Positions 41,307-58,300 of a stretch of 64,000 bases of DNA are shown in pieces. The stretch lies in NCBI GenBank assembly GCA_024638565.1, contig JAHEKC010000001.1, positions 10,245-74,244 on the forward strand. Reading direction: 5' to 3'. Under the pieces are notes generated by a model, which saw only the letters and a program-made list of their open reading frames with translations, ran no database searches and had not been told where the DNA came from. Within the stretch, counting starts at the first letter, position 1, and every line of letters starts with the position of its first letter. Origin of the DNA: Bacteroidota bacterium (GTDB lineage: Bacteria; Bacteroidota; Bacteroidia; AKYH767-A; OLB10). Position numbers and translations under genes: made by a program.

Positions 41307-44300
41307 TTATTTCCTGAGTACGATATATCCGGTACGCGGCTTGGTGCCGTCACCCAGGTTCAATACGTAGAAATACGTTCCGGCAGGCACCCGTTTTCCG
41401 ATATAAATACCGGTTACATTCGATAACCCGTCCCAGTTGTTTTTATAGCTCCTGGCCTTGTAGACCAGGTTGCCCCACCTGTTGTAAATCCAGATCATGT
41501 TGCCCGGGTAATGTTCTATTCCCTTGATGACAAAGGCATCATTGATGCCATCATCATTTGGCGAGTATCCAGACGGAATGATGAGGGTGTCGCACATGAC
41601 GGTCACGATCACCTGACCGTTTGTTTTACAGCCATGTTCGCTTGTGATTTCCACGTTGTAAGAAGTCGTCAGGGTAGGCGACGCGATAGGATTGCTGACC
41701 GTGGTAAAATCGAGCCCCGTGGCCGGACTCCACAGGTAGCTTGCACCTCCGGAGGCGGACAGCTGTGTGCTTTCGCCCGGGCAGATGATGACGTTCGGGC
41801 TCAGGCTTACGTTGGTCATGGACTGCACATTGACTTCTATGGTATCTGAATGGAACTCGCCGCACGGGTGACTGATCGAAACGGAATAAAAGCCTGCGGC
41901 CGGCGTCACGAACACAGGGTATGTGGCGCCACCGAGTATTTGTCCGTTCAGGTACCATTGGTAGGTGGCGCCGTCAATTGAGTCTGCAAGCAGAGTCACC
42001 AGGTCGCCAACGCAGACAGTCGTCGGGCCATCTGCTTTAGCATGAAATTCTGAGATGTCCCCAACCGTTACCTGGTATTCCGAGGTGCATCCATTGTCGT
42101 CAGTGACGGTAACCGTATATGTGCCCTGTGGAAGATTCGTGATTTGCTGAATGGTGCCGCCCTGGCTCCACTGGTACTGGTAGGGCGCGGTTCCACCTGA
42201 AGGGTTGGCCGTTGCCGAACCACCTGTATTCATCAGGCAGTTGGAAGGTGTGGTCGTGCCGGTAACCATTACGGATGCCGGGGGCTGAATGATGGAAGCC
42301 GTGGTAACGACCGTGCAGCCGTTGGCGTCTGTCACCGTGACGGTATAGCTTCCTGCAGGCAGCCCCGAAACATCCTCCGTGGAGGCCCCATGGCTCCATG
42401 TATAGGTATAGGGCGGGGTGCCCTGCGTTACAGTGAGGTCGATGCTGCCGTCGCTTCCATTGTGGCAGCTTACCTGCTGTGTCACCGTGGCACCCACGGA
42501 CAGCGCTCCCGCTGGCTGGGTCACCTCAACAGAATCGGTCAGCGTACATCCGTTCGCATCAGTAATTGTTACGGCATAGGTGCCGGCTGGCAGGGAAGAA
42601 ATGTCCTTTGTGGTATCCCCGCTGCTCCACTGGTAACTGTAAGGGGCCGTGCCCATGCTGGTATTCACAGTTATGGCGCCATTGGCACCTCCATAACAGC
42701 TGACCGGCTGGCTCATGGTGAGCGTTGCGTTGAGGGCCCCTGCCGGCTGGGTGATGGTAACACTGTGTGTATCCGTACAGCCGTTGGAATCTGTGATGAT
42801 AACGGTGTAGGTACCGGCCTGGAGATTCATGATGTCTTCCGTAGTCATGCCGTTTGACCATGAGTAGCTATAGGGTGGGGTTCCCATCTGGACCGTGAGG
42901 TCTATTTGGCCGTCAGATCCTGCATGACAGCTGACCTGCTGCAAAACGTTTGATGAAATCGACAGGGCGCCATTCGGCTGAGTGATTGCAACCGTTTGTA
43001 CGCCGCTACATCCGTTAGCATCTGTTACAGTCACCGTATAGGTGCCGGCAGTGAGGCTGTCGATATCTTCCGTGATTGCACCCGTGCTCCAGTTGAAATT
43101 GTAAGGAGGTGTGCCTTGTGTTACGGTAAGGTTCAAAGCACCATTATTACCATTATAACAACTTACCTGCTGAAGTACGGTGATGCCAGTGGAAAGCGCA
43201 CCTGCTGGCTGGGAAATGGATATTGCCAGCGTATCAACGCATCCATTGGCGTCGGTAACCGTTACTGAGTAATTGCCTGATGGCAGGTTACTTATATCTT
43301 CCGTGGTATCACCGGTATTCCAGGCATAGCTATATGGCGGCGTGCCCATGACCACCGTCAGGTCAATGTTGCCTGTACTGTCTGCAAAACAACCTACATT
43401 TTGGGACGAGGAGACCGTGGCATTCAGCGCACCGGCAGGCTGGGAAATCAAAGTCATAAGCGTATCGGTGCAACCATTCGTATCCGTCACGATTACGGAG
43501 TAGTTGCCCGATGCAAGGCCGGAAATGTTTTGCGTGGTCTGACCGCCACTCCAGTTGAACGAATAGGGTGGCGTACCCATGGACACGGTCAGATCAATGG
43601 AGCCATCCGAACCAGCATAACAATTTACATTTTGTGAAGCGGCAAGGGTGGCAGAAAGTGCGCCTGCGGGTTGTGAGACCACGACTGTTTGCATGGACAG
43701 GCACCCGTTGGCATCATTAACAGTTACTGTATAGGTCCCGGACGGAAGGTTGTTAATATCCTCTGTTGTAGCGCCATTGCTCCACAGGAAAGTATAAGGT
43801 GGGGTGCCACTGCTGGCTGTGAGGTTGACAGATCCGTTCGATCCTCCATGGCAGGATACATTCTGTGATATGGAAACACTCGTGGTGAGTGATCCGGGTG
43901 GCTGCGTGATGGTTGCCGAAGTCACATAAGTACAGCCATTCGCATCTGTCACGGTAACCGTGTATGTGCCTGCTGCAAGTCCAGAAAGGTCTTCACTTGG
44001 GGACCCGGTATTCCAGAGATAGGCGTATGGTGGCGTGCCACCGTTGACAGTCAGGTCAATGGAGCCGTTGTTTCCGGAGAAGCATGAAATATTGGAAGTG
44101 ACTGACGCTGTACCACTAAGAGGATTTAGCGGCTGGTTCAGCGTTAAAGTTTGCTGGCTGGTGCAGCCATTGGCATCGGTAATATTTACCGTGTAGGTAC
44201 CCGCCGTGAGTCCGGATAAATCCTTAGTTGTCGCACCGTTGCTCCAGCTGTATGAATAAGGGGTAGTGCCACCTGATACCGTTAGGCCGATGGAACCGTC

Positions 44301-47300
44301 CGTACCGGCATGGCAGTTAATATTTTGAGATGCGCTGATTGATGAAGAAAGCGTGGCCAGCGGTTCGCTTACGGATGCGGATTGCGTGGCAGTACAGCCA
44401 TTTACATCCGTGATAATTACTGTATAATTACCGGCTTGAAGGTTGGCTATATTCTGTGAGGTATTTCCGTTGCTCCATTGATAGGTATATGGAGAGGTGC
44501 CGCCATTGACGGTAAGGGATACCGCGCCATTCGATCCAGCGAAGCAGCTTACGTTCTGGAATGAAGAAACCGAGGCAGCAAGGGTTGCGGCAGGCTGGGT
44601 AATGGTGGCTGCAAGTGATGTGGTGCATCCGTTTGCATCGGTGATGACGACTGTATAGGTGCCAGAGGAAAGGCCTGTAAGATCTTCAGTCCCGGCTCCG
44701 TTATTCCAGGCAAATGTATAAGGAGGGGTGCCTTGTGTAACGGTAATATCAATAGTTCCATCCGAGCCAGCATAACAGTTTACAGGAGTGGATGAAAAGA
44801 TTGTTGCGCTGAGCGCACCTGACGGTTGTTGTATTGTCGTGGTTGCAGTGGCGGTGCAGCCGTTGGCATCGGTAATGGTGGCAGTATATGTTCCTGCCGG
44901 AAGACCGCTTAGATCCTCCGTTGCCGACCCGTTACTCCACGCTACCGTATACGGGGGTGTGCCTTCCTGGATGGTAAGGTCAATTGATCCGCTGGTCCCG
45001 CCGAAACATAATACGTTTTGTGAAGCGCTGATGGCCGCAGACAGGGGACCCGATGGTTGGGCGATAGTGACGGATAGCGCCGTCAGGCAGCCATTTGCGT
45101 CTGTGATCGTTACATTGTAGGTGCCTGTGCTGATATTCTGAAGGTCTTCAGTGGTCGCGCCGTTACTCCAGTTATAGGTGTAAGGAGGTGTGCCACCGCT
45201 GGTTGAAAGGTCAATAGAGCCGTCCGTGCCTCCAAAGCAGTTAACATTTTGTGTTGCTGAAACGGCTGACGCCAATGATGCAGCAGGCTGGGTGATGGTG
45301 ATGGACTGAGAATCTGTACATCCGTTGGCATCCGTTACGGTTACGCTGTAACTGCCGGCGGCCAGGTTAGCCTGATTTTGATTTGCAGAGCCATTTGACC
45401 ATAAGTATGTATATGGCGGTGTGCCGCCGACTACAGATAGAGATGCCGTTCCATTGCTCCCGCCAAAGCAGTTCACCTGTTGTGTGGCATTCGCACTTGC
45501 GCTGATTGCCTGGCTTGGTTCTGTTATGGTGCCTGTGACGGATGCCGAACAACCGTTTACATCTGTGATCGTCGCGGTATAGACACCTGCACTGAGGCTT
45601 TGAATGTCTTCCGTGGTGGCTCCGTTACTCCATGTATAGGCATAAGGAGGCGTACCCCCGGTAACCGTCAGGTCGATATTCCCGTCATTACCCCCGTAAC
45701 ACAATACACCCTGCGTAACCTGGATGCTCGTTGAGAGCGCACCCGCCGGCTGTGTAATCGTATCTGTAACGGTGAATGTGCAGCTATTGGCATCAGTAAT
45801 CGTGACTATGTAAATGCCTGCTGACAAATTGGATATGTCTTCCGTATTGGCTCCCGTGTTCCAGGCGTAGGAGTAAGGCGCGGTTCCACCTGTCGCGGTA
45901 AGGTCAATAGATCCGTTGTTTCCGGAAAAACAGGATATATTGGACGTAACCTGGGTTGCGCCGGAAAGTGGTGCAGCGGGTTGGCTTATCGTCGCCGATT
46001 CGGAGCTGGTACAGCCATTGGCATCGGTAACGGTGACGCTGTAAGTGCCGGCGGCAAGGCCGTTTATATCCTCTGTCGTGGATCCGTTGCTCCAGTTATA
46101 TGTGTATGCGGTCGTTCCGCCATTTACGGTTAGGTCTATTTCGCCATTATTCCAGCCAAAACAGGATACTTGTTGTATATTAATGTTTGTTGAAAGCGCG
46201 GAAGCAGGCTGGCTGACTGATGAAGAGTGAATGTACGTACAGCCATTTGCGTCTGTGATGGTGACGGTGTATGATCCTGCCGCGAGACCGGTGAGATCCT
46301 GCACGGTGTTTCCGTTGGACCAGTTGTAGGAATATGCCGGTGTGCCCCCGGTTACAGTTAGGTCTATTGCGCCGTTGCTGCCGCCGAAGCATGAAACAGC
46401 TTGTGGCGAACTGCTGGTAGCGCTCAAGGAGACGGGAGGTTCTGTCACGCTGATGGTCGAGGATGAAGTACACCCCAGGGTGTCGGTTACGGTAACAGTA
46501 TATGTTCCTGCAGGAATACTTGTCAGGTTTTGTGTTTGACTTCCGTTATTCCACTGATATGAATATGATGGCGTGCCGCCTGAGGTTAATAGCGTTATAG
46601 AAGCATTTGTTCCGCCATGACATGAAACATTCTGGGAAGAAGATATAGAGGAGGTCAGTGGTGCAGTTGGTTGGGTGATTTCGTGACTTTGAACAAGAGT
46701 ACATCCGTTGGCGTCAGTTATGGTCACCGTGTATGTACCGGCACTCAGGTTGTCAATGTTTTGTGTGGTGCTTCCCTTGCTCCACAAGAAAGTATACGGG
46801 CTGGTTCCGCCGCTGACAAACAGGTTCACGGAACCGTTGGTTCCGCCAAAGCAAGAGACATTCGGGGAGGCTGTTGTGATGGCCGACAGGGCCGCGCCCG
46901 GCTGGCTTACACCTGCAGTGATGCTTTTAGAACAGCCATTGGCGTCCGTAATGATAATTGTGTAGGTTCCGGCGCTGATTCCTGAGATGTTTTGTGAAGT
47001 GGAGCCATTGGACCATGTGAACGAATAGGGAAGGGTTCCGCCTGAAACAGTTGTATTGGCGCTACCGGTAGACCCGGAGTGGCATGCGACTGGGATGGTG
47101 GTTACACTGGCGGATAAGGTGGGAGTCGCATCGATTGTTACGGAAATAGCAGCCGTGCATGAAGCCCGGTCGGTAACGGTAACGGAATACGTGCCAGCTG
47201 ACAGGCCTGATAGATCCTCCGTGATCTGACCGTTGCTCCATTGGAACGAATATGGCGGGAAGCCGCCTGAAGGTGTTAAATCGACAGAACCCGTGTTCGT

Positions 47301-48428
47301 GCTGCATGAATAATCCACATGCGTTTCAGAAAGCGACACTTCGCCGACTAAAACTTCCTTGGAGCATATGCCGGAATAACCGGTAATGGTCATTTCGACA
47401 TTGATGATAAAGCTACCACTGCTGGCCCCAGTATTCAAGGTGATGGATGTTCCCACGTTGCTGCTGGTAATGGAAGCTCCGGCCGTGTTATTAGCAAGGC
47501 TCCATGTGTAGGTATACCCGACGTAGGGATCGACACTATAGGTCATCGTTTGTCCGGTACAGACACTGTCCTCTCCGCTGAATTCACAGGGCGGTACGGG
47601 TATGACAGCAGCTGTGGAAAGGGAGAGGTCCGAATTTCCTCCGCTCCCGTCAAGCGACTTGAGTGCCATGTGGTATCCTGATCCGCTGATGCCTGCCGCC
47701 GAATACTCCGGGCACCAGTCAAAGGCAGCTGCGATGTGCCCGCCCCATGCAAGCACCACCGTATCCCTTGAGGATACGAAGGTTATCTGCAGTCGCTGCG
47801 ACTCGTCTGAAGCATTCAGGTCCGGACTAAGCAGGTATTGTATGTCGGTGATGGAATCCCCGTTGAACATCGTAAACATTCTTTCTGATGCCGGAAGGGA
47901 ATTGAACGATGTAGCTGGCTGAGACAGTCCTGTACAGGTAACGACCTTGTTGGAAACAGGAACCGGGATCGGGAAGTTAAATGGCGTGGGATCGACGGTT
48001 GGGAGCCCTCCCAGTAAGTCGATGACTTCTGCAGAATGTGAAAACTGGTCATGAGGTTCCAGTCTGTTATAGTGGGTTATGTAATCTATCGCGTGGTTGT
48101 AGTTTTTTTTAATGTCGTATTCTATGATAAGCGTGTGCGTGCCTGGTGCCAGTCCGGTGATTACGTAACGGTAAGGCACAGACATACTTTCCAGGAAATG
48201 CGAATTGCTTGATCCGGCATTGCCGTTCACAAAATCCACGGGCGATACCGGAGAGTTGGCAGCGCCGTTCCTGGCCTGTTTCAGGTTACCTGATTGCCCA
48301 TGAACGGTCAGGGAAGTCATAATCATGAACGACAGGGCTAAAAACAAGGCAGCCGCCCGTGTGGAGGGGCGGTTGGAGCGGTTTCTAAGCGCCTGCCGGT
48401 GAGTATTGCCTGGGTTTATTGATTCCAT
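41307..48428 (-). CDS. Giant (2373 aa) SprB-repeat cell-surface protein with type-B T9SS CTD and an unrecognised ~290-aa N-terminal domain
   Basis: There is a signal peptide. The N-domain contains NGNAGSSNSHFLESMSVPYRY...EYDIKK...THYNRLEPH. About 24 SprB repeats of 75-77 aa follow, then two Ig-like modules. The C-terminus is IPSGYSPNDDGINDAFVIKGIEHYPGN...YIVLRK. Confidence 0.85.
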   Translation of the reverse strand: MESINPGNTHRQALRNRSNRPSTRAAALFLALSFMIMTSLTVHGQSGNLKQARNGAANSPVSPVDFVNGNAGSSNSHFLESMSVPYRYVITGLAPGTHTLIIEYDIKKNYNHAIDYITHYNRLEPHDQFSHSAEVIDLLGGLPTVDPTPFNFPIPVPVSNKVVTCTGLSQPATSFNSLPASERMFTMFNGDSITDIQYLLSPDLNASDESQRLQITFVSSRDTVVLAWGGHIAAAFDWCPEYSAAGISGSGYHMALKSLDGSGGNSDLSLSTAAVIPVPPCEFSGEDSVCTGQTMTYSVDPYVGYTYTWSLANNTAGASITSSNVGTSITLNTGASSGSFIINVEMTITGYSGICSKEVLVGEVSLSETHVDYSCSTNTGSVDLTPSGGFPPYSFQWSNGQITEDLSGLSAGTYSVTVTDRASCTAAISVTIDATPTLSASVTTIPVACHSGSTGSANTTVSGGTLPYSFTWSNGSTSQNISGISAGTYTIIITDANGCSKSITAGVSQPGAALSAITTASPNVSCFGGTNGSVNLFVSGGTSPYTFLWSKGSTTQNIDNLSAGTYTVTITDANGCTLVQSHEITQPTAPLTSSISSSQNVSCHGGTNASITLLTSGGTPSYSYQWNNGSQTQNLTSIPAGTYTVTVTDTLGCTSSSTISVTEPPVSLSATSSSPQAVSCFGGSNGAIDLTVTGGTPAYSYNWSNGNTVQDLTGLAAGSYTVTITDANGCTYIHSSSVSQPASALSTNINIQQVSCFGWNNGEIDLTVNGGTTAYTYNWSNGSTTEDINGLAAGTYSVTVTDANGCTSSESATISQPAAPLSGATQVTSNISCFSGNNGSIDLTATGGTAPYSYAWNTGANTEDISNLSAGIYIVTITDANSCTFTVTDTITQPAGALSTSIQVTQGVLCYGGNDGNIDLTVTGGTPPYAYTWSNGATTEDIQSLSAGVYTATITDVNGCSASVTGTITEPSQAISASANATQQVNCFGGSNGTASLSVVGGTPPYTYLWSNGSANQNQANLAAGSYSVTVTDANGCTDSQSITITQPAASLASAVSATQNVNCFGGTDGSIDLSTSGGTPPYTYNWSNGATTEDLQNISTGTYNVTITDANGCLTALSVTIAQPSGPLSAAISASQNVLCFGGTSGSIDLTIQEGTPPYTVAWSNGSATEDLSGLPAGTYTATITDANGCTATATTTIQQPSGALSATIFSSTPVNCYAGSDGTIDITVTQGTPPYTFAWNNGAGTEDLTGLSSGTYTVVITDANGCTTSLAATITQPAATLAASVSSFQNVSCFAGSNGAVSLTVNGGTSPYTYQWSNGNTSQNIANLQAGNYTVIITDVNGCTATQSASVSEPLATLSSSISASQNINCHAGTDGSIGLTVSGGTTPYSYSWSNGATTKDLSGLTAGTYTVNITDANGCTSQQTLTLNQPLNPLSGTASVTSNISCFSGNNGSIDLTVNGGTPPYAYLWNTGSPSEDLSGLAAGTYTVTVTDANGCTYVTSATITQPPGSLTTSVSISQNVSCHGGSNGSVNLTASSGTPPYTFLWSNGATTEDINNLPSGTYTVTVNDANGCLSMQTVVVSQPAGALSATLAASQNVNCYAGSDGSIDLTVSMGTPPYSFNWSGGQTTQNISGLASGNYSVIVTDTNGCTDTLMTLISQPAGALNATVSSSQNVGCFADSTGNIDLTVVMGTPPYSYAWNTGDTTEDISNLPSGNYSVTVTDANGCVDTLAISISQPAGALSTGITVLQQVSCYNGNNGALNLTVTQGTPPYNFNWSTGAITEDIDSLTAGTYTVTVTDANGCSGVQTVAITQPNGALSISSNVLQQVSCHAGSDGQIDLTVQMGTPPYSYSWSNGMTTEDIMNLQAGTYTVIITDSNGCTDTHSVTITQPAGALNATLTMSQPVSCYGGANGAITVNTSMGTAPYSYQWSSGDTTKDISSLPAGTYAVTITDANGCTLTDSVEVTQPAGALSVGATVTQQVSCHNGSDGSIDLTVTQGTPPYTYTWSHGASTEDVSGLPAGSYTVTVTDANGCTVVTTASIIQPPASVMVTGTTTPSNCLMNTGGSATANPSGGTAPYQYQWSQGGTIQQITNLPQGTYTVTVTDDNGCTSEYQVTVGDISEFHAKADGPTTVCVGDLVTLLADSIDGATYQWYLNGQILGGATYPVFVTPAAGFYSVSISHPCGEFHSDTIEVNVQSMTNVSLSPNVIICPGESTQLSASGGASYLWSPATGLDFTTVSNPIASPTLTTSYNVEITSEHGCKTNGQVIVTVMCDTLIIPSGYSPNDDGINDAFVIKGIEHYPGNMIWIYNRWGNLVYKARSYKNNWDGLSNVTGIYIGKRVPAGTYFYVLNLGDGTKPRTGYIVLRK

Positions 48429-48452
48429 TTTGATTTGGTTGATACGTTGTAA

Positions 48453-51400
48453 TTATTTTCTTAATACAATATACCCTGTCCTTGGCTTGGTGCCATTGTT
48501 TAAGTCCAGGATGTAAAAGAATGTACCGTTGGGCAGTTGTTTGCCGATATAAATCCCACTAACATTTGAAGTTCCATTCCAGTTATTTTCATAATCCGTC
48601 GCTTTAAAGATCAACGCTCCCCAACGGTTGTAGATCCAAAGCTTGTTTCCAGGAAATTTCTCAATCCCGGGGATAGTGAATTCATCGTTATATCCGTCAT
48701 TATTGGGTGAGTAGCCAGACGGAATGACGAGCGAGTCACATACCACGCTGACAAGCACTTCACCGGTGGCACGGCAACCGTCCTCATTAGTGACCTCCAC
48801 GGTATAGGTTGTAGAGACGGTAGGGGAGGCAACCGGATTTTCGACATCCGTACGGTCAAGGCCTGTAGCCGGGCTCCAGGAATAGCTTACACCACCACTG
48901 GCAAGCAGCGGCGCGCTTTCGCCCGGGCAAAGGATCACGTTCGGGCTGACTGAAAGATTCTGTACCACAGATACCGTCACTTCGATTGAATCGGAGATGA
49001 AATACCCGCACGCATGATTGATGGCTACCGTATAGATTCCGGCAGCCGGAGTGGTAAAATCGGTATATACAGCACCTCCGAGGGCTTCACCATCTAGAAA
49101 CCACTGGTAGGTGGCGCCTTGAATAGAATCCGCAACCAGGGTTACGAGATCTCCGGAGCATATAGTCGTGGGTCCGGTTGCATTGGCACTGAATACCGAA
49201 TTATCTCCAACTGTATAAGTTTCACGGGTAGTACATCCGTTCCCTTCTGTTACAATGACCGTGTAGCTTCCATGCGGTATATTTGAAAGGTTCTGTGTTG
49301 TCGCACCATTGCTCCATTGGAACAAGAAAGGACCTATGCCTGTCGTTATACTGACATTAACGCTTCCAGAAATATTATCAAGACAATTTGCATTGGCAAT
49401 TGTGCCCGTTATGACGATGGCGGGTGGGGGTTGCAGTACGGAGGCTATGAAGCTTTTCGTGCATCCGTTGCCGTCTGTTACCGTTACCGTATACCCTTCA
49501 GCCGGTATATTGCTAAGGTTTTGCGTAGTTGCACCAGTACTCCACATATATGAATAAGGTGGCGTACCGCCGGCCGCAGTCAGATTGATTGTCGCAGTGC
49601 TGTCTCCGAAACAGGATAAGCCGGGATCGATTACTATTGAAGTGGATAATTCAAGCGGCTGCGTGACCGAACCGGTAGTATTTGCCTTGCAGCCATTTGC
49701 GTCGGTAACCGTGACAAGGTAGGTTCCGGGCGGTAATCCACTCAAGTCTTCGGTAATTACACTATTGCTCCACTTGAATGAATAAGGTGGTGTGCCCATA
49801 GATACTGTCAGGTCAATGGAGCCGTTGTTATTCCCGAAGCAATCGATGTTTTGTGAGACGGCACCTGCGGAAAGTGCGCCTGCGGGCTGTGTCACAGATG
49901 CTATAACGGTGTCCACACATCCATTGGCATCTGTTATTGTGACGCTATACGTACCAGAAAGCAAGCCTGAAACAGAATTGATGGTATCACCGTTGCTCCA
50001 TGAGTATGAATAGGGAGAAGTGCCTCCGTTGACTGAGAGACTGATGGAGCCGGTAGCTTCTGAGAAGCAAAGTACATTTTGCAAATCTGTGATTGCCGGA
50101 GAAAGCGGGGCAGGCTCACTAATGTACACAGGCTGCGATGTGGTACAGCCATTTGAATCTGTTATAATAACGTTGTATGTGCTGGCTGACAAGCCGCCAA
50201 TGTTTTGAGTTGTATTCCCATTGTTCCAGGCATATGAATACGGGCTCGTGCCGCCTGTTACGGAAACTGTAACAGAACCGTCTGATCCTGAAAAACAACT
50301 TACATCCTGTTGGGTTTGGACCAGTGACGACAGCGGTGCAGCCGGTTCCAGGATGGAATGAGTTTGTTCAACCGTGCAATTATTTGCATCGGTTACGGTG
50401 ACACTATATGTTCCTGGAGCCAGCGGACTGATGTTTTGAGCAGTCGACCAATTGCTCCAGCTGAATGTATAGGGTGCTGTGCCCTGGGATACTATTAGGC
50501 TTATGGCTCCGTTGCCGTTGCCGAAACAGTCAATATTCTGAACCTGCGCGGAAACAGCCAGGGCGCCTGCAGGCTGTAAAACAGTTGATGTACTTGAATC
50601 AGTGCATCCGTTAGCGTCTGTAACTATTACCGTATAGTTGCCAGTTGCCAGACCGCCGATATCCTCAGTGGTGGCGCCATTGCTCCAGTTGAAAGCAAAC
50701 GGAGGTGTTCCACCGCTGACTGTTAGATCAATTAAGCCATCATTGCCGCCATTGCAGCTCACGTTTTGTAAAGTGGCTACACTAGCGGCCAGCATGGAGG
50801 CGGGCTGGGTGACATTGGCCGTTTGGAGGCCAGTACATCCATTGAGGTCTGTGATCGTTACAGTGTAGTTTCCGGCAGAAAGATTGTTAACATTTTGAGT
50901 AGTACTTCCTGTACTCCAGTTGTATGAATACGGACTTGTTCCTCCATTGACCGATAGTATTATTGATCCATCGCTTCCGGAATGGCAACCAACACTTTGT
51001 ACAGCTGATACCGAAATAGAAAGTGGTGATGCCGGCTCGCCTATGGATTGCGTGGCTTGTGCAGTACAATTGTTAGCATCGGTTACGGTGACAGTATAAA
51101 TACCGGCTGAAAGACCAGAGATGCCCTGAGCGGTGTCACCTGTATTCCATAAAAAGGAGTATGGGCTGGTACCTTGCGAAACAGAAAGATTAATGGCGCC
51201 ACTGTTTGCCCCGAAACATGAAACATCTTGTACGGATGATACTGATAAGCTTAGTGCGCCGGAAGGTTGACTTATGATAACCGTTGCAGAGTCGATGCAA
51301 CCATTCGCATCGGTAACTGTAAGGGTGTAGCTGCCGGAACTAAGGTTGTTTATGTCTTCGGTGGTAGATCCGTTGCTCCAGAGAAATGAATAAGGGGGTG

Positions 51401-54400
51401 TGCCTTGTGTAACAGTTAGATCCGCCGAGCCATCCGATCCCCCACTACAGTTTACGTCTTGTGATGAATCGACAGTAATGCTGAGTAGACTTGATGGCTG
51501 GCTGATAACAACATTTTGATTTGCAACACATCCGTTGGAATCGGTAACCGTAACCGTATAAGCCCCTGAAGGCAGATTGCTTATATCCTCTGTGGTTTGT
51601 CCGCTACTCCAGGAGAATGTAAAAGGAGGTGTGCCGTTGCTGACAGTCAGGTTGATAGCTCCATTTGAACCGCCAAAGCAGGATACGTTCTGAAGAATAT
51701 CGATGCTTGCCGTCACCAACGGTACTGGAAGTAAAAGCATTGAGGTGATGGAAAAGGTACAGCCATTGGCATCAGTGGCCGTAACCGTGTATGTACCCTT
51801 TCCGAGATTTATCAGATCCTCAGAAGTAGCGCCGGTATTCCAGAGGAACGTATAAGGCGGTGAGCCCCCATTGATTGTTACATCAATGGAACCCGTATTA
51901 CCGGCGGTGCACGAAGCGTTTTCAAAGACAACTGCACTGCCGGTGATGGAATCTGCAGGTTGTGATACGGTTGCCGACTGTTGAAGCGTACAGCCATTCG
52001 CATCAGTAACTGTAACGGTATAGTTGCCTGGTAAAAGAGAGCTAATATTTTGGGTAGTTTCACTATTGCTCCAAACGTATGAATATGGTTGAGTTCCCTG
52101 TGCGACTGTCAGGTTGATCGAACCATTTGCGTTGCCATAACAATCAACATCCTGCACTGATGGAGTTGCTGACAGGTTCCCGGCAGGTTGCGTGATTGTA
52201 ACAGTAATAGAATCGATGCATCCGTTTGCATCCAAAACTGTAGCCGTATACTGGCCTGCGGGGATTCCGGACAAATCTTCAGTAGTAGCTCCTGTACTCC
52301 AGTTGACAGTATAAGGGGCCGTACCGCCACTTACAGTCAGATCGATATCACCATCCGTACCAGAAAAACAGTTTACATTTTGAGCGGAACTTATCGCAGT
52401 TGTTAGTGCGAACAGAGGTTCGGATATTGTGAAGGACTGGGTGTCTGTGCAGCCGAGTGTATCCGTAACAGTGATGATGTAATTACCTGTTGGCAGGTTA
52501 CTTATGTTCTGGGTAGTGCTTCCATTGCTCCAGTTATATGTAAATGGAAAAGTTCCCCCGGTTACCTGCAGAATGATAGAGCCGTCAGAACCCGAATGGC
52601 AATTTACATTTTGAACTGTTGTAGCTGATGCGGCAATTGAAGCGGCCGGCTGTGAAATGACATATGAAAGTGAATCGAGACACCCGTTGAAATCAGCTAT
52701 CGTTACGACGTATGTGCCCGCTGCAATAGACGAGATGTCTTCAGTGGTGGCACCGTTACTCCAGTTAAATGTATACGGAGGTGTTCCGCCACCTACTGAA
52801 AGGTCAATTGACCCGTCATTCCCGGTGAAGCAACTCACGTTTTGAGCACCGGTAATACTTGAAAACATGGAGTCGGGTTCGGATACTGTGGCGTTCTGAA
52901 TGATGGCACAACCATTGGCATCTGTAACAGTGACTGTATAGCTACCGGCGGACAGGCTGGAAATATTCTGCGTTGTGACACCGTGGCTCCATGCAAAGGT
53001 GTATGGGCCCGTGCCCCCGTTTACGGAGATATTTACGGCCCCGTCAGATGCTGAGAAGCAATTAGCGTTTTGAATGGTGTTGATGCTGGCATTTAATGAT
53101 GCGGCCGGCTGGGATACGCTAACGTTCTGTCTTTCGGTACAGCCATTATTGTCAGTTACGGTTACGGTATAAGTACTGGCTGATAAAACGCTCAGGCTCT
53201 GTGCCGTTGCACCCGTGTTCCATATATAGGAATATGGCGGGACTCCTCCGGTGACAGCAACAGATGCAGCCCCGCTGTTATCACCAAAACAGGAGGCATT
53301 TGTTGAAGAGCTTGTTAGTGATAATGCAGCCGGCTGTGTGAGGATGACGCTGGTTGCGTCAGTGCAACCATTGGCATCCGTGACGGTTGCAGTATATGTT
53401 CCGGCGACCAGCCCCGTAACCGTTTGGTTATTAGATCCGGTTGACCATTGGAAATTGAAGGGTGCCGTGCCTCCCGAAATGTTAAGGGATATTGAGCCGT
53501 TGTTGCCGTTAAAGCAGGAAACCTCGGAAGGAGATCCGGACACGGAAACCAGCGGAACCTGGTTGATGGTTACAGCCGTTGTCCCGGTACAGCCCATCTG
53601 GTCAGTAACAGTTACGACATAGTTGCCTGCGCCAAGCCCGGTAAGATCTTCTGTAGTTTGCCCATTGCTCCAGAGGAATGAATATGGCGGGAAGCCGAAG
53701 GTTACGGTAAGGTTAATTGAGCCCATAGAGCTGGGGCAGGCTAGATCCTCATTAGTAGCATTGAGTACCGGCCCGGAAACGGTTACTTCGCTCGAGCATG
53801 TATCTGTATATCCGGATGCGTTGACTACCACGTGTATGGTAAATCCTCCTGGGTTGTTTCCTGCAATTACATTGACAGATGACCCGGTATTGGATCCAGA
53901 AAAGGATGCCCCGGATACATTGTCCGACAGGAACCATGAATAATCAAATCCAATAAGGCTGTCAGATGTAAAGACCAGCGTGTCTGCCATGCAGGCTACG
54001 GACGGCCCTGTCAGGCCACAGCCATCCAGCGTCATTACGGCGGTAGCAGACAGAGAGCGATCCCCGGTACCTTTCCCTCCATCTACTTCAACTATGGTCA
54101 TATGATAAGCTGAACCAGGAATTCCTGAGATTGAATATTGGGGGCACCAGTCGTGCGTAGTTGCCAGATGCCCGCCCCAGACAAATACCACGTGTGGATT
54201 CAGGGTGGTGAAAGTGACCTGCATCAATTGCTCCCCTCCTGATTGGTTAAGGTCGGGTACGTTTAGGTACTGGATATCAGTAATGGCCGTTCCGTTGAAC
54301 ATGGTCATCAGTCGTTCTGATGGCGGTAACTTATTGAAAGCTGTTTTCGGCTCCAGTAAACCTGTGCATGTTACCAGCTTGTTTGACGGTGGTTCTGGGA

Positions 54401-54905
54401 TGGGGTACGTAATAGGGGTAGGGTCTATTCCGACCTGGTCTGCCAGCGGATCAATTGTTTCAGCCGGATGCCAGAAAAGTCCGTGAGGTGAAAGTCTGTC
54501 ATAGTGTGTAAGGAAATCAAAAGCGTGTTTATCTCCTTTTTTTATGTCATATTCAATGATAAAATTATGTGTGCCGGGTGTGAGCCCCTTTAATATAAAC
54601 CGGTAGCTTGCGGACATGCCTTCCAAGTAGTGTGAATTGGATGTACCGGCATTGCCATTTGACCAATATGCAGGGGTAACAGGTGATAGTCGGCTCCCAT
54701 TCCTGATCTGTTCCAGCCTGAGGGTTTGTCCAAGAACGGACTGGCCACTCATCAATGCCAGTGCAATTATGGCCAGCAAGTGTCGAATCCGTACATGCGT
54801 AATAGATAGACACGTAATCAGTGCATATTGGATCTTCCTTGCGGCTAAGTTTAAGCCGAAATTTGAGGTTATGAATGGTTTTGGTGAAATCCTGGTACCG
54901 AGCAT
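48453..54905 (-). CDS. Giant (2150 aa) SprB-repeat cell-surface protein, paralogue of 41307-48428 with the same N-terminal domain type and a type-B T9SS CTD
   Basis: The N-domain (NGNAGTSNSHYLEGMSASYRF...EYDIKKGDKHAFDFLTHYDRLSPH) is homologous to the upstream giant protein. About 22 SprB repeats follow. The C-terminus is IPSGYSPNNDGYNDEFTIPGIEKFPGN...YIVLRK. The true start may be downstream of the ATG at 54905, because the ORF begins with a long leader before the signal peptide. Confidence 0.8.
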   Translation of the reverse strand: MLGTRISPKPFITSNFGLNLAARKIQYALITCLSITHVRIRHLLAIIALALMSGQSVLGQTLRLEQIRNGSRLSPVTPAYWSNGNAGTSNSHYLEGMSASYRFILKGLTPGTHNFIIEYDIKKGDKHAFDFLTHYDRLSPHGLFWHPAETIDPLADQVGIDPTPITYPIPEPPSNKLVTCTGLLEPKTAFNKLPPSERLMTMFNGTAITDIQYLNVPDLNQSGGEQLMQVTFTTLNPHVVFVWGGHLATTHDWCPQYSISGIPGSAYHMTIVEVDGGKGTGDRSLSATAVMTLDGCGLTGPSVACMADTLVFTSDSLIGFDYSWFLSDNVSGASFSGSNTGSSVNVIAGNNPGGFTIHVVVNASGYTDTCSSEVTVSGPVLNATNEDLACPSSMGSINLTVTFGFPPYSFLWSNGQTTEDLTGLGAGNYVVTVTDQMGCTGTTAVTINQVPLVSVSGSPSEVSCFNGNNGSISLNISGGTAPFNFQWSTGSNNQTVTGLVAGTYTATVTDANGCTDATSVILTQPAALSLTSSSTNASCFGDNSGAASVAVTGGVPPYSYIWNTGATAQSLSVLSASTYTVTVTDNNGCTERQNVSVSQPAASLNASINTIQNANCFSASDGAVNISVNGGTGPYTFAWSHGVTTQNISSLSAGSYTVTVTDANGCAIIQNATVSEPDSMFSSITGAQNVSCFTGNDGSIDLSVGGGTPPYTFNWSNGATTEDISSIAAGTYVVTIADFNGCLDSLSYVISQPAASIAASATTVQNVNCHSGSDGSIILQVTGGTFPFTYNWSNGSTTQNISNLPTGNYIITVTDTLGCTDTQSFTISEPLFALTTAISSAQNVNCFSGTDGDIDLTVSGGTAPYTVNWSTGATTEDLSGIPAGQYTATVLDANGCIDSITVTITQPAGNLSATPSVQDVDCYGNANGSINLTVAQGTQPYSYVWSNSETTQNISSLLPGNYTVTVTDANGCTLQQSATVSQPADSITGSAVVFENASCTAGNTGSIDVTINGGSPPYTFLWNTGATSEDLINLGKGTYTVTATDANGCTFSITSMLLLPVPLVTASIDILQNVSCFGGSNGAINLTVSNGTPPFTFSWSSGQTTEDISNLPSGAYTVTVTDSNGCVANQNVVISQPSSLLSITVDSSQDVNCSGGSDGSADLTVTQGTPPYSFLWSNGSTTEDINNLSSGSYTLTVTDANGCIDSATVIISQPSGALSLSVSSVQDVSCFGANSGAINLSVSQGTSPYSFLWNTGDTAQGISGLSAGIYTVTVTDANNCTAQATQSIGEPASPLSISVSAVQSVGCHSGSDGSIILSVNGGTSPYSYNWSTGSTTQNVNNLSAGNYTVTITDLNGCTGLQTANVTQPASMLAASVATLQNVSCNGGNDGLIDLTVSGGTPPFAFNWSNGATTEDIGGLATGNYTVIVTDANGCTDSSTSTVLQPAGALAVSAQVQNIDCFGNGNGAISLIVSQGTAPYTFSWSNWSTAQNISPLAPGTYSVTVTDANNCTVEQTHSILEPAAPLSSLVQTQQDVSCFSGSDGSVTVSVTGGTSPYSYAWNNGNTTQNIGGLSASTYNVIITDSNGCTTSQPVYISEPAPLSPAITDLQNVLCFSEATGSISLSVNGGTSPYSYSWSNGDTINSVSGLLSGTYSVTITDANGCVDTVIASVTQPAGALSAGAVSQNIDCFGNNNGSIDLTVSMGTPPYSFKWSNSVITEDLSGLPPGTYLVTVTDANGCKANTTGSVTQPLELSTSIVIDPGLSCFGDSTATINLTAAGGTPPYSYMWSTGATTQNLSNIPAEGYTVTVTDGNGCTKSFIASVLQPPPAIVITGTIANANCLDNISGSVNVSITTGIGPFLFQWSNGATTQNLSNIPHGSYTVIVTEGNGCTTRETYTVGDNSVFSANATGPTTICSGDLVTLVADSIQGATYQWFLDGEALGGAVYTDFTTPAAGIYTVAINHACGYFISDSIEVTVSVVQNLSVSPNVILCPGESAPLLASGGVSYSWSPATGLDRTDVENPVASPTVSTTYTVEVTNEDGCRATGEVLVSVVCDSLVIPSGYSPNNDGYNDEFTIPGIEKFPGNKLWIYNRWGALIFKATDYENNWNGTSNVSGIYIGKQLPNGTFFYILDLNNGTKPRTGYIVLRK

Positions 54906-55049
54906 TTCAGTTTGATTATTTGTTCACAAAACGTTATCCCGTTATACTGCCAAACCGGACCTAAAGGTTACAGGATGAATGGATTATATCATGGAGCCCT
55001 GGACAGGTGCCCGTTACGGAAAAAGTGCTCTTCGAAAGCAGAAAAAAGA

Positions 55050-55115: not shown

Positions 55116-57320
55116 TTACTTGTTGGAAGAAAGATCTTTGGCGACCCTGATCACCCTGATTTCAGTCCTCCGGTTCTTTTGATGGTCTTCTTCTGAACAG
55201 ATTGATCCATCCGCACACTTGTTCATCAGCATCGTTTCGCCTCCCCATTCCATTTTTTCGACGACAGACCTTGAAGTGCCGTTATTGACAAGCCACTGGG
55301 TAGCGGCCTCGGCCCTGTGCCTGGAGAGTCTTTCGTTGTATGCATTTGTCCCCCTGGAATCACAATAGGAGTTCATCAGCAGGCGCACCTCGGGGTTTGC
55401 TTTTACGAACTGCAACACCTCCATCATTGTTTTGACAGCGTCTGGCCGGATATTGGATCTGTCGAAGTCATAGTAGATGATCTTGTACCAGCGGGCGAAT
55501 TTGCCCACGTCAGCACCTTTCTTCAGGTCTACGACAACCTCGAAGTCCTTGTCAATCTTCTGCCCCACGTTGGACAGTGTGACCACCTTGGGATCGTAGC
55601 CGCTTTTCATGATGATCAGCGCAATCTGCAGGTCGCGCTCAAGGGGTTGCATGTATACGCCTTTCTTGTCCGTCTTGCCCAGGGTCTTGTTCGTCTGATC
55701 AATGCCGATAACGGCATTGTGCAGCATCTTTTTCGTTTCCCTGTCGCGTACTTTCACGATCAGGTTATAAACCCGCTCCTGCTTCTTGATTTCCAGCTTG
55801 ACGAAGAAATCCTCGGACGGGAAGTAGTCTATGGTTTTGAAGTGTTCAAAGTCCCGTGAATAGGATTCCTTGGTGCCTTCGACAGTATATTCCTCGTCAT
55901 AGTCTATAGGAAACTCGAACATGGCATCTTCACCGGCAGTCATCTCCAGGACATCGTTGCTGCTGTTCCGAAGCTTTACATGTGCCATGGGGATGGGCTT
56001 GTCCGTTCCTTCCTCGACCACGATACCGCGCACCTTGAGCATGCGGCGGAAGCTGTATATATCATCATCAACCCCTTTAGACTCTCGGTTTGAGCTGAAA
56101 TAGCCGTAATGCGTCTTGGTATTGAATATGATGCCGAAGTCGTCCTCACTGGAGTTCACCGGCGCGCCCATGTTTTTCGCATCCATCCAGGTCGTGTCCT
56201 TCTGGTGCGTGTAAAAGACATCCAGTCCGCCCAGGACATCACGGCCGTTGGAAGCAAAGAGGAACGTGCCGTCAGCATGCTGGTATGGGAACAGCTCGTC
56301 ACCCTCCGTATTGATCGCTTCACCCATGTTGACAGGTGCATTCCATTCTGCGTTAGCGCTGTCACGGTCGCAGTAGTAAAGGTCCATGCCACCCTGGCCG
56401 CCCGGCATATCGGAGGTGAAATAAAGCCGGAGGTTGTCAGGCGAAACAAAGGCGTGTGCACAATTGAATTCGTCGTTGTTATACTTGAAGGGCGTGAGGT
56501 CCTTCCAGTTTCCATCCTTCATGCGGGCATGGAAGATCTTGAGCTTAACGACTGCGTCTTCACTGGTGAAGACCTTTTTCTTGACCACGTTATTTCGTGT
56601 GATATATACTTCCCCGCCATCCTGGCTGAACGCCACCGGGCCATCATTGTATTTGATCTGTACATTGTCCGAGAACGGTTCCACCTCCAGGAAGGTATTC
56701 CCTTTTCCTTTTGAGTAATACAGGTTCAGGTAGTTTTCATTGGTCCAGGAATGTTTTTTCTCAATCAGGTCTTTCGAGGGCCGTGCGGAGGAGAAAACCA
56801 TTCCCTCGTCGAAAAATGCCGGGGCAAAGTCCGCATTCGGGGAATTGATGATCAGCTTCCAGACGAAATAATTTGCCGTGTCCTTGAAGTAGGAAGGGAT
56901 ATTCTCGATCGTCTTAAGCGCGAACATCCCGCGCCTGTCGTCAGGGTTCAACTCGGCATAATCCCGGATCCAGGCTTTGGCGTCGTTGTATTTTCCGTTC
57001 TTCATCAGGGCCTGCCCGTAGTAATACTTATGGATGGGCTCATGGTCCTTGGTCTTGACCACTTCGCCATACCAGAATTCGGCCTTTTCACTGCGACCGG
57101 TCTTGCGGTAGCAATGAGCCAGCTTGACCATGGCGGCGGTGAAATCGGGATGCTTTTCCAGGATCTTCTCGTATGCCATGATGGCCTCGCTGTATGCGAG
57201 CTGGTCATACAATTCATCCGCTTTTTCCAGTTGCTTGCTCTGCCCGAATCCGTAATGCGCCACCAGTGAAAATATGGCTGTGAGCAGAATCAGGTGTGCG
57301 ATCGTCTTTTTCATGAGCAT
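55116..57320 (-). CDS. OmpA-family protein (N-terminal TPR, central beta-propeller-like repeats, C-terminal OmpA/MotB peptidoglycan-binding domain)
   Basis: The signal peptide is followed by TPR helices. Repeated Tol-type (PD40-like) motifs follow (FSPDNLRLYFTSD, FASNGRD). The C-terminal OmpA domain contains YCDSRGTNAYNERLSRHRAEA. The gene sits immediately downstream of the PorP/SprF gene. Confidence 0.8.
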   Translation of the reverse strand: MLMKKTIAHLILLTAIFSLVAHYGFGQSKQLEKADELYDQLAYSEAIMAYEKILEKHPDFTAAMVKLAHCYRKTGRSEKAEFWYGEVVKTKDHEPIHKYYYGQALMKNGKYNDAKAWIRDYAELNPDDRRGMFALKTIENIPSYFKDTANYFVWKLIINSPNADFAPAFFDEGMVFSSARPSKDLIEKKHSWTNENYLNLYYSKGKGNTFLEVEPFSDNVQIKYNDGPVAFSQDGGEVYITRNNVVKKKVFTSEDAVVKLKIFHARMKDGNWKDLTPFKYNNDEFNCAHAFVSPDNLRLYFTSDMPGGQGGMDLYYCDRDSANAEWNAPVNMGEAINTEGDELFPYQHADGTFLFASNGRDVLGGLDVFYTHQKDTTWMDAKNMGAPVNSSEDDFGIIFNTKTHYGYFSSNRESKGVDDDIYSFRRMLKVRGIVVEEGTDKPIPMAHVKLRNSSNDVLEMTAGEDAMFEFPIDYDEEYTVEGTKESYSRDFEHFKTIDYFPSEDFFVKLEIKKQERVYNLIVKVRDRETKKMLHNAVIGIDQTNKTLGKTDKKGVYMQPLERDLQIALIIMKSGYDPKVVTLSNVGQKIDKDFEVVVDLKKGADVGKFARWYKIIYYDFDRSNIRPDAVKTMMEVLQFVKANPEVRLLMNSYCDSRGTNAYNERLSRHRAEAATQWLVNNGTSRSVVEKMEWGGETMLMNKCADGSICSEEDHQKNRRTEIRVIRVAKDLSSNK

Positions 57321-57343: not shown

Positions 57344-58300
57344 TTAGAAGTAACGCGGCGTAACCACCTTGTCCTTCTCGAATGAGAAGTCGTACCCGAT
57401 GGTGAATTCATGCGTGCCACTGTTGTAATTATTAAGCTTGGTAAGCGTGTAGTCGTAAGAATATCCGAAGCGAAGCTGCTTGGTAAGCTGGTACTGGGTA
57501 AGTACCGACACGGCATCACCGGTCCTGTATGCCATGCCAAACCAGAATACCTCCTTGAACAGGGCATTAAGCGTGATATCGGCTTCCAGCGGTGCGCCGG
57601 ATACGGCAGCAACCATGAGGGAAGGCTTCATCTTCACACTTTCGTTGATGTCGAAAACGTAGGCCGAGAACAGGTAATAGTGCCAGTTCTGAAGGTTGAC
57701 CTTGTTCGCTGTCGCTTTCTGGGTCACCGGGTCTATCTTGTTTTCGAGAAACCGCGGGATAGACAAGCCGGCATAGAAACGGTCCGTATGGAAATAGGTG
57801 CCGAATCCGAAGTTGGGCATAAGCTTGTTCTGGATGTTCCTTGAGAATTCAGGATCGTTGGGATCGATGGTGATCACATCGAGCAGCTTTTCCTCCACGT
57901 TGATAATGCCACCCTGCAGTCCCATGGACAGGATGCCCTGGTCGCTGACCTGCATGTGATGGGCGTAGCTGACGAATGCCGCCGTCTGGTTGGTGACCCC
58001 TATCCTGTCGTTCAGGATGCTGATGCCCACCCCGTTCGTTTCACGGGAAAAGGGCATGTGGAAGTTGACAGTGGCGGTTTTCGGCGCTCCCTCGATGCCT
58101 ACCCACTGGTCCCTGTAAAGCAGGGAAGCGGCCGCGAAGCCCCTTGAACCTGCATAGGCCGGGTTGATGAACATCTCGTTGTTCATGTACTGTGTGAAAT
58201 GGGGCTCGTACTGGGCCTCTGCCCTTTCCGATGCCATCACACTCATGGCCAGCGCCGCTACAGCTATGATTCCTTTCCTGAAATGCTGTTTCATATACAT
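57344..58300 (-). CDS. PorP/SprF family type IX secretion system membrane protein
   Basis: The 318-aa product has a signal peptide and a beta-barrel with a C-terminal F. The motifs FNPAYAG, DQW and GAPxTxxxN are characteristic of PorP/SprF. The gene sits directly downstream of a type-B CTD gene, as sprF does relative to sprB. Confidence 0.8.
   Translation of the reverse strand: MYMKQHFRKGIIAVAALAMSVMASERAEAQYEPHFTQYMNNEMFINPAYAGSRGFAAASLLYRDQWVGIEGAPKTATVNFHMPFSRETNGVGISILNDRIGVTNQTAAFVSYAHHMQVSDQGILSMGLQGGIINVEEKLLDVITIDPNDPEFSRNIQNKLMPNFGFGTYFHTDRFYAGLSIPRFLENKIDPVTQKATANKVNLQNWHYYLFSAYVFDINESVKMKPSLMVAAVSGAPLEADITLNALFKEVFWFGMAYRTGDAVSVLTQYQLTKQLRFGYSYDYTLTKLNNYNSGTHEFTIGYDFSFEKDKVVTPRYF

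What the first reader, a model, noticed from the sequence alone, without database searches (positions are those of the whole stretch)
47558..48428. Unrecognised ~290-aa N-terminal head domain shared by the two largest adhesins (first copy, in the 2373-aa protein)
Seen in sequence: after the signal peptide both giant proteins carry a paralogous non-repetitive domain (RNGxxxSPVxP...NGNAGxSNSHxLExMSxxYRxxxxGLxPGTHxxIIEYDIKK...THYxRLxPH...PIPxPxSNKxVTCTGL...WGGHxAxxxDWCP...GSxYHM). It differs from the SprB/Ig repeats that make up the rest of each protein. I cannot assign it to a known family. By position it is the distal tip of the fibre, so it may be a ligand-binding or adhesive module.
Basis: partly seen in the sequence, partly recalled or inferred. 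Interest (0 to 1): 0.5.

Follow-up and report, generated by a model that had tools for sequence, protein, structure and literature searches.

The report
Uncatalogued head domain of surface fibres
Two giant secreted surface proteins each start with the same ~230-residue beta-sandwich domain, which belongs to a large family found in many bacterial phyla but absent from the domain catalogues searched; its function is untested, so it is worth cataloguing but not a surprise in kind.

The parts
41307..48428 (-). Gene A, 2373 aa: signal peptide, head, PKD-like Ig domain, 23 SprB repeats, Ig-like domains, CHU_C tail
   Evidence: ORF list, translation, Pfam SprB E 2e-249 with 23 stretches and CHU_C E 4e-26
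48297..48428 (-). Signal-peptide region of A, residues 1-44 (charged stretch, hydrophobic core, ...TVHG|QSG)
   Evidence: Read from the translation; the cleavage site is inferred by eye, no predictor was run
47595..48293 (-). Head domain of A, residues 46-278: the finding itself
   Evidence: 57% identical to head B; AlphaFold model with pLDDT 94.7, ordered over query residues 3-235; no Pfam or NCBIfam hit
47343..47594 (-). PKD_6-like Ig domain immediately after head A, residues ~279-362
   Evidence: Pfam PF19408 E 2.2e-7, residues 277-339; 36% identical to the equivalent stretch of B
41316..41582 (-). CHU_C (T9SS type B) C-terminal sorting domain of A, residues 2283-2371
   Evidence: Pfam PF13585 E 4.2e-26
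48453..54905 (-). Gene B, 2150 aa: same architecture with 20 SprB repeats; its stop codon lies 24 nt upstream of the start of A
54027..54728 (-). Head domain of B, residues 60-293: the second copy
48462..48725 (-). CHU_C sorting domain of B, residues 2061-2148
   Evidence: Pfam PF13585 E 2.6e-25
57344..58300 (-). PorP/SprF-family outer-membrane protein, the likely surface anchor partner for the type B cargo in this cluster
   Evidence: Pfam PF11751 E 2.8e-83; anchoring role taken from PMC9143113 (listed)
55116..57320 (-). TPR + PD40 + OmpA-family protein between the PorP/SprF gene and gene B
   Evidence: Pfam hits

Best explanation
The head is a member of a large, uncatalogued family of single-copy N-terminal domains that cap secreted cell-surface fibres.

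Each protein is exported by Sec. It is then taken across the outer membrane by the type IX secretion system through its CHU_C tail and held at the surface by its C-terminus, probably on a PorP/SprF-type protein. The long SprB-repeat stalk therefore presents the head at the end away from the cell.

The head is an enlarged beta-sandwich. Its core resembles pilin/MSCRAMM (Gram-positive cell-wall-anchored adhesin) and cohesin modules, and about half of it is family-specific loops. A set of near-invariant polar residues appears to converge on one region flanked by variable, indel-rich loops. In protein A numbering these are Q51, N54, H77, E80, S83, Y86, R87, D105, D115, T118, H231, S250, H253 and D267.

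I propose that this region is a binding site, possibly metal-assisted, for a ligand common to many environments, such as a glycan or another cell-surface component.

Shown: the paralogy, the family's size and spread, the single N-terminal position, the anchor swapping, the fold class, the conserved residues, and the absence of a conserved lysine.
Inferred: the clustering of the residues (from covariation only), and the binding function and ligand.
For: - Paralogy: E 3e-117 between the two heads, and only two copies in the window.
- Family size: 3787 50%-identity cluster representatives at E<=1e-3 and 1413 at E<=1e-30. The query profile also included the following PKD-like region, so the weakest hits may come from that part.
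- Genome spread: 353 tblastn-confirmed loci in species-representative genomes, found with two strict peptide patterns. They come from Bacteroidota, Verrucomicrobiota, Acidobacteriota, Patescibacteria, Actinomycetota, Ignavibacteria, KSB1, Eisenbacteria and Planctomycetales.
- Position: one head per protein. It starts within the first ~160 residues in 142 of the 150 listed representatives (a count I made by hand from the table) and in nearly all 80 loci.
- Anchors differ at the other end: CHU_C here, T9SS type A tail in Flavobacterium and Hymenobacter, LPxTG plus a hydrophobic and basic tail in Patescibacteria.
- Stalks differ: SprB, PKD, HYR_4C, SpaA_2/4, DUF11.
- Conservation: in 294 non-redundant heads, E37, D72, H188, H210 and W195 are 100% conserved; Q8, N11, S40, Y43, R44 and D224 are 99% (query numbering, add 43 for protein A).
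- Clustering: mean-field covariation recovers the predicted strand pairings. It couples G12-H34, N27-S207, S40-T75, D62-R212, I189-I41/P208/R225 and Y209-S226, and links the variable loops 96-102, 111-116 and 156-166 to the same region.
- Type B tails are anchored through PorP-like proteins (PMC9143113), and a PorP/SprF gene lies in the cluster.
Against: - No ligand, metal or binding activity was demonstrated.
- I could not inspect model coordinates, so burial and exact geometry of the conserved residues are unknown.
- Adhesin tips usually evolve fast. Here identity is 40-60% across phyla with ~50 near-invariant positions, which fits an enzyme or a structural core at least as well as a binding site.
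- Covariation places the N-terminus and the C-terminal exit at opposite poles, with the conserved cluster in the half nearer the stalk rather than at the distal pole.
- The covariation analysis is underpowered (effective sequence number ~245). Couplings at near-invariant columns rest on a few variant sequences.
- Both window copies lack residues that are 92-95% conserved elsewhere: R212 is A/T and Q223 is S/G in A/B, and R225 is L in A. Whatever the canonical site does may be altered here.
Confidence: 0.5

Rival explanations
1. Structural cap: the head is a stabilised terminal beta-sandwich with no ligand of its own. The invariant polar residues would form a buried hydrogen-bond network, a structural metal site, or an autocatalytic internal cross-link. 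One candidate is a Ser/Thr-Gln ester bond like those in Clostridium perfringens Cpe0147 repeats. Any of these would hold the long loops together and protect the free end of the fibre.
For: The closest folds are cross-linked pilin/adhesin domains: CppA, PrgB, AgI/II C-terminus, BcpA, RrgB and CLIPPER. The family has an invariant Gln in the first strand (Q8) next to a hydrophobic-facing position (L6). It also has conserved Ser/Thr (S40, T75, S207, S226), two invariant His and invariant acids. That is the residue set an ester-forming site needs; the chemistry is from my own knowledge of Kwon et al. 2014 (PNAS) and was not checked here. About half the domain is irregular loop that needs stabilising.
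Against: The domain is never repeated and is always terminal, unlike stalk cross-link domains. There is no conserved Lys (maximum 52% in any column), so the canonical isopeptide is excluded. The strand register from covariation pairs Q8 with Y43 and N11 with S40, which does not obviously put Q8 beside a conserved Ser or Thr. Variable, indel-rich loops surround the conserved region, as around binding sites.
Confidence: 0.2
2. Tip enzyme: the His/His/Glu/Asp/Asp/Ser/Arg/Tyr constellation is a catalytic, possibly metal-dependent, centre. The fibre would then display an enzyme, for example one acting on a polysaccharide or on another cell's surface.
For: Conservation of polar residues across at least nine phyla is enzyme-like: 100% for E37, D72, H188 and H210, and 99% for D224, S40, R44 and Y43. 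These residues appear to cluster. An HxxE motif (H34-x-x-E37) plus two further invariant His could make a metal site; that is inference only.
Confidence: 0.12
3. Protein-docking module: the head works like a cohesin, binding a partner protein or another copy of itself. It would assemble surface complexes or zip cells together, possibly with a metal bridging histidines.
Against: No dockerin-like or otherwise conserved partner gene lies near the 80 loci examined. Similarity to cohesins is no better than to pilin domains and covers only ~110 of ~235 residues. There is no sequence-profile match.
Confidence: 0.1

Closest known systems
CnaA-like domains of Gram-positive pilins and adhesins (C. perfringens CppA D1-D2 5xcb, PrgB Ig-like domains 8beg, S. 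mutans AgI/II C-terminus 3qe5, BcpA 3kpt, RrgB 2x9w)
   Different: Only ~120-140 of ~235 residues superpose, at 6-14% identity. Foldseek finds nothing significant and there is no Pfam or PDB profile match. The family lacks the conserved Lys of the isopeptide triad. It is a single terminal domain, not a repeated shaft unit.
CLIPPER / DUF11 (PF01345; structure 9ifr; PMC12617251)
   Different: CLIPPER is a tandem stalk repeat of ~110 aa with a Lys-Asn isopeptide. A profile-profile comparison of the head family with a DUF11 profile built from session sequences gives 0.6% probability. No DUF11 hit overlaps a head.
Cohesin modules of cellulosomes
   Different: There is no sequence relationship and no dockerin partner in the neighbourhoods. 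The head is about 90 residues larger.
Flavobacterium johnsoniae SprB and other type B CTD cargo of the type IX secretion system
   Same: The whole-protein architecture matches: a giant SprB-repeat stalk, a CHU_C/type B tail and an adjacent PorP/SprF-like gene (PMC9143113 and PMC12618676, listed).
   Different: The comparison concerns the carrier, not the head. I did not test whether F. johnsoniae SprB itself has this head. In Flavobacterium the head was found on ~750-aa type A tail proteins.
'Choice-of-anchor' domain families of NCBIfam (concept)
   Same: They behave the same way: one N-terminal domain paired with alternative C-terminal sorting signals (T9SS type A, T9SS type B, LPxTG) in different lineages.
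   Different: No NCBIfam model, choice-of-anchor or otherwise, matches any of 82 heads at E<=1 beyond noise.

Membership tests
T9SS type B cargo (SprB-repeat / CHU_C proteins): whole protein | C-terminal CHU_C (type B) sorting domain | tested here: met
   PF13585 E 4.2e-26 in A and 2.6e-25 in B, both above the 27-bit cut-off
T9SS type B cargo (SprB-repeat / CHU_C proteins): whole protein | Tandem SprB repeats forming the stalk | tested here: met
   PF13573 with 23 stretches in A and 20 in B
T9SS type B cargo (SprB-repeat / CHU_C proteins): whole protein | Neighbouring PorP/SprF-like gene | tested here: met
   PF11751 E 2.8e-83 at 57344-58300, same strand
CnaA-like intramolecular-isopeptide domains | CnaA-type beta-sandwich fold | tested here: inconclusive
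CnaA-like intramolecular-isopeptide domains | Conserved Lys (first strand) with Asn/Asp and a catalytic Asp/Glu triad | tested here: not met
   No column has Lys above 52% in 294 non-redundant heads; the first strand carries an invariant Gln instead
CnaA-like intramolecular-isopeptide domains | Sequence-profile match to a Pfam family of the clan | tested here: not met
   No such hit in 82 heads at E<=10; hhalign against DUF11 gives 0.6%
Thr/Ser-Gln ester cross-link domains (Cpe0147 type) | Conserved Thr/Ser, Gln, His and acidic residues present | tested here: met
   Q8 99%, S40 99%, T75 97%, H188 and H210 100%, D72 and E37 100%; this shows composition only
Thr/Ser-Gln ester cross-link domains (Cpe0147 type) | Those residues within bonding distance; mass loss of 17 Da | not testable with these tools
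The covariation register (Q8 opposite Y43, N11 opposite S40) does not obviously support it
Cohesin | Sequence-profile match and a dockerin-bearing partner | tested here: not met
PKD_6 (PF19408): the domain after the head | Pfam score above the gathering threshold | tested here: met
   A residues 277-339 score 31.5 bits against a cut-off of 25. B was not detected by Pfam but is 36% identical to A over that stretch
Any Pfam-A / NCBIfam family: the head itself | A hit at or near the curated threshold | tested here: not met
   only scattered chance hits, each in at most 4 of 82 members

The most novel reading that the evidence does not exclude
The head is a pan-bacterial tip module whose invariant His/His/Glu/Asp/Asp (+Ser, Gln, Asn, Arg, Tyr) cluster is a reactive centre rather than a passive binding surface. 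It could be a metal-dependent enzyme, or a covalent-bond-forming site analogous in role to the thioester domains of Gram-positive adhesins. Lineages as distant as Bacteroidota and the episymbiotic Patescibacteria would then present it at the end of surface fibres.
Probability: 0.15. Interest if true: 0.75.

Novelty: new variant of a known kind. Interest (0 to 1): 0.42.

Why it matters
N-terminal heads give fibrillar surface proteins their specificity, yet very few are characterised outside Gram-positive pathogens. This one defines a family of well over a thousand sequence clusters with no model in Pfam or NCBIfam and no solved relative. It spans environmental Bacteroidota, Verrucomicrobiota (including Akkermansia MAGs), Acidobacteriota and the host-attached Patescibacteria. 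It is combined with at least three sequence-recognised anchoring systems, plus a shared unidentified C-terminus in Verrucomicrobiota.

Its unusually strong conservation suggests one shared chemistry or ligand. Identifying that would annotate thousands of 'hypothetical' giant proteins at once, and might explain how gliding bacteria and episymbionts attach. For the window itself the result is more modest: two old paralogues of this family, both with an altered version of the conserved site.

Tried and rejected
- Pfam and NCBIfam scans of the two heads and of 82 homologous heads at permissive thresholds returned only noise.
- PDB sequence-profile searches with 16- and 110-sequence alignments gave no hit in the head. 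The two weak hits fall in the downstream Ig region.
- Foldseek against PDB found nothing significant.
- The Foldseek AFDB50 library was not available, so annotated AlphaFold neighbours could not be checked.
- A canonical isopeptide bond was rejected because the family has no conserved Lys.
- CLIPPER/DUF11 homology was rejected by hhalign (0.6%).
- A conserved partner gene was sought by all-against-all clustering of ORFs from 80 loci. The best cluster, a response regulator, is in only 10 loci.
- The first genome scan with the 16-sequence alignment failed for lack of a conserved stretch. It was repeated with a 6-sequence alignment.
- An exact-sequence look-up of the window's PorP/SprF protein, meant to identify the source organism, found nothing. 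asnS, rpoN and 2-oxoacid oxidoreductase genes show the window is chromosomal.
- A literature search found no description of this head. The fibrillar-adhesin surveys cover Firmicutes and Actinobacteria heads and isopeptide stalk domains.
- One translation request and one family scan failed on frame errors.
Full report
**What is there**

The minus strand of 34.9-64 kb carries a run of same-strand genes:
- a SprB-repeat protein that runs off the window edge (58375 onward);
- a PorP/SprF outer-membrane protein (57344-58300);
- a TPR/PD40/OmpA protein (55116-57320);
- protein B (48453-54905, 2150 aa);
- protein A (41307-48428, 2373 aa);
- two further CHU_C proteins of 862 and 1258 aa.

A and B have 23 and 20 SprB repeats and a CHU_C (type IX secretion, type B) tail. 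The start of A lies 24 nt after the stop of B. Upstream genes include asnS, rpoN and a 2-oxoacid oxidoreductase, so this is a chromosome.

**Checking the observation**

The N-terminal regions of A and B align without gaps at 50% identity over 311 residues, E 3e-117. The head alone is 57% identical over 228 residues. The next domain is 36% identical, the stalk ~51% and the tail 62-70%. tblastn of the head against the window finds these two copies and nothing else above noise.

- Residues 1-44 of A are a signal-peptide region.
- The ordered head is residues 46-278 (nt 47595-48293).
- A PKD_6-like Ig domain follows from residue 277 (Pfam 31.5 bits against a cut-off of 25).

**Is it a known family?**

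No, by every catalogue I could search.
- Pfam-A and NCBIfam give nothing for either head.
- Scanning 82 homologous heads individually at E<=10 (Pfam) or E<=1 (NCBIfam) gives only scattered chance hits, none in more than 4 members.
- PDB sequence-profile searches with 16- and 110-sequence alignments find nothing in the head.

**How widespread is it?**

A word-indexed search with the single sequence found only 14 relatives. A profile search of 1.84 billion cluster representatives found 3787 at E<=1e-3, 2823 at E<=1e-10 and 1413 at E<=1e-30. That profile also included the following PKD-like region, so the weakest hits may come from it.

Source names are uninformative: 'hypothetical protein', 'SprB repeat-containing', 'T9SS type A sorting domain-containing', 'TIGR01451 repeat protein'.

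A scan of one genome per species with two strict peptide patterns returned 353 confirmed loci. The 80 retrieved come from:
- Bacteroidota (Flavobacterium, Chitinophaga, Hymenobacter, Cyclobacteriaceae, Saprospiraceae);
- Verrucomicrobiota, including Akkermansia MAGs;
- Pyrinomonadaceae (Acidobacteriota);
- Patescibacteria (Terry-, Roizman-, Woese- and Saccharibacteria);
- Actinomycetota, Ignavibacteria, KSB1, Eisenbacteria and Planctomycetales.

**Anatomy across the family**

An HMM of the head finds exactly one copy per protein, near the N-terminus. In one search it starts within ~160 residues in 142 of the 150 listed representatives; I counted that by hand from the table.

What follows the head is interchangeable: SprB repeats, PKD, HYR_4C, SpaA_2/SpaA_4 prealbumin domains, DUF11/CLIPPER, Ig and beta-helix.

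The C-terminal anchor also changes:
- CHU_C here;
- a type A T9SS tail in Flavobacterium yafengii and Hymenobacter antarcticus;
- LPNTG, LPATG or LPRTG followed by a hydrophobic stretch and a basic tail in four Patescibacteria proteins;
- a shared '...FYRALMLP' end in Verrucomicrobiota.

Type B tails are held on PorP-like proteins (PMC9143113). In every lineage, therefore, the head is at the end of the protein opposite the anchor.

Head genes are sometimes tandem: two here, three in L008 and two in L054. No other gene is consistently nearby.

**Structure**

With 16 sequences AlphaFold gave pLDDT 81.5. With 110 sequences it gave pLDDT 94.7 and pTM 0.91, ordered over residues 3-235 of the 247-residue query. 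The model has about 14 strands, two short helices and long irregular segments (25-39, 76-105, 190-208).

Foldseek finds no hit at E<=0.001, with best TM 0.31.

So the core is a pilin/MSCRAMM/cohesin-type sandwich, but there is no close solved relative and about half the domain is family-specific. A profile-profile test against DUF11/CLIPPER gives 0.6% probability.

**Conserved residues**

All residue numbers from here to 'Mechanism and rivals' use the query numbering; add 43 for protein A.

In 294 heads non-redundant at 90%:
- 100% conserved: E37, D72, H188, W195, H210.
- 99%: Q8, N11, G26, S40, Y43, R44, D224.
- 92-98%: N27, H34, D62, T75, W185, S207, Y209, R212, Q223, R225, S226.
- No column exceeds 52% Lys, so the Lys-Asn isopeptide typical of the structurally closest domains is not a feature of this family.

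The residue set (Gln, Ser/Thr, two His, acids) would be compatible with an ester-type cross-link or with a metal or catalytic site. That is composition, not geometry.

**Where the conserved residues sit**

The top couplings reproduce antiparallel ladders between the predicted strands. In each ladder the paired residue numbers i and j add to a roughly constant sum:
- 3-13 with 40-48 (i+j=51);
- 40-48 with 53-65 (i+j~102);
- 53-65 with 166-176 (i+j~229);
- 209-216 with 221-228 (i+j~435).

That agreement gives some confidence in the analysis.

Couplings involving near-invariant positions are G12-H34, N27-S207, S40-T75, D62-R212, I189-I41/P208/R225, Y209-S226 and S228-A30. They place N11, N27, H34, S40, D62, T75, H188, S207, H210, R212, R225 and S226 in one neighbourhood. 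The variable, indel-rich loops (96-102, 111-116, 156-166) couple to the same region.

Couplings 3-48 and 4-213 against 228-30 and 229-17 suggest that the N-terminus and the C-terminal exit are at opposite poles. They put the conserved cluster in the half nearer the stalk.

This analysis is underpowered. Couplings at near-invariant columns rest on few variants, so I treat it as inference.

**The window's copies are atypical**

Both keep all the fully invariant residues. They have lost others:
- R212 is A in copy A and T in copy B.
- Q223 is S in A and G in B.
- P208 is G in A and A in B.
- Copy A also has R225L and D7K.

Each of these states is seen in at most a few of the 294 sequences.

A is closer to heads from other genomes (P0016 64%, L010 63%, P0001 and P0015 61%) than to B (57%). 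The duplication is therefore old and at least some of these losses happened separately. P0016, a 2361-aa protein, already has R212S but keeps NQDR.

A, B and their nearest relatives share a clade-specific Cys pair (VTCTG and DWCP), likely a disulfide.

**Mechanism and rivals**

- Best supported (about 0.5): an anchor-distal binding head whose conserved polar region, framed by variable loops, recognises a widely available ligand, possibly with a metal.
- Structural cap (0.2): a stabilised terminal domain with a buried polar network or an internal cross-link.
- Tip enzyme (0.12).
- Cohesin-like docking or self-association module (0.1).

None can be excluded without coordinates or experiments. 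The unusually high cross-phylum conservation argues against a fast-evolving, host-specific adhesin tip, and it keeps the enzyme and structural readings alive.

**Novelty and score**

The kind of thing is familiar: a non-repetitive beta-sandwich head on a fibrillar surface protein. The family itself is absent from the libraries searched and from the papers I could find. It is large and taxonomically broad, with a striking conserved residue set.

I rate it a new variant of a known kind, interest 0.42. It is worth a Pfam entry and a structure-function study, but it is not a surprise in principle.

Noticed in passing
window 37490-38560 (-) and 40122-41192 (-): The 1258-aa and 862-aa CHU_C proteins share a second, unrelated, cysteine-rich N-terminal head. 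It is 56% identical over 357 aa, E 9e-151, and begins ATHSAGADLTY...FYRDC. Pfam finds nothing in that region; the first hits start near residues 441 and 475.
   Followed up: partly
window 58375-64000 (-): The third SprB-repeat/CHU_C protein is open in frame to the window edge. It is therefore longer than the 1861 aa listed, and its N-terminus is unseen. It may or may not carry the same head.
   Followed up: partly
window 48000-56000: GC content drops to 0.48-0.49 across gene B and the OmpA-family gene, against 0.52-0.59 in gene A and the rest of the window. The two paralogues differ in composition.
   Followed up: no
window 20545-24006 (-): A 1153-aa ORF with an apparent signal peptide has no Pfam or NCBIfam match at the thresholds used, E<=1e-5 and E<=1e-10.
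   Followed up: no
L008 1828-12388 and L054 5908-12872: Homologous head-bearing genes also occur in tandem arrays elsewhere: three in a Chitinophagaceae MAG and two in Chitinophaga tropicalis. Local duplication of head genes is therefore recurrent.
   Followed up: partly
L009, L040, L078, L080 (C-termini of the head proteins): Patescibacteria versions of the head protein end in LPxTG-type sortase signals and carry SpaA_2/SpaA_4 and DUF11/CLIPPER stalks. The same head is thus mounted on a Gram-positive-style fibre in episymbiotic bacteria.
   Followed up: partly
head family alignment, query positions 9 and 96/102; positions 122 and 196 (A residues 165 and 239): There are two different clade-specific cysteine pairs. 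C9 with C96/C102 occurs in about a fifth of members (LDQC...). C122 with C196 (VTCTG / DWCP) occurs in the SprB-linked clade that includes both window copies. These are probably alternative disulfides.
   Followed up: no
window 33093-34055 (+): A 320-aa Ser/Thr protein-kinase-like ORF lies just outside the adhesin cluster (NCBIfam kinase models, E 4e-25).
   Followed up: no
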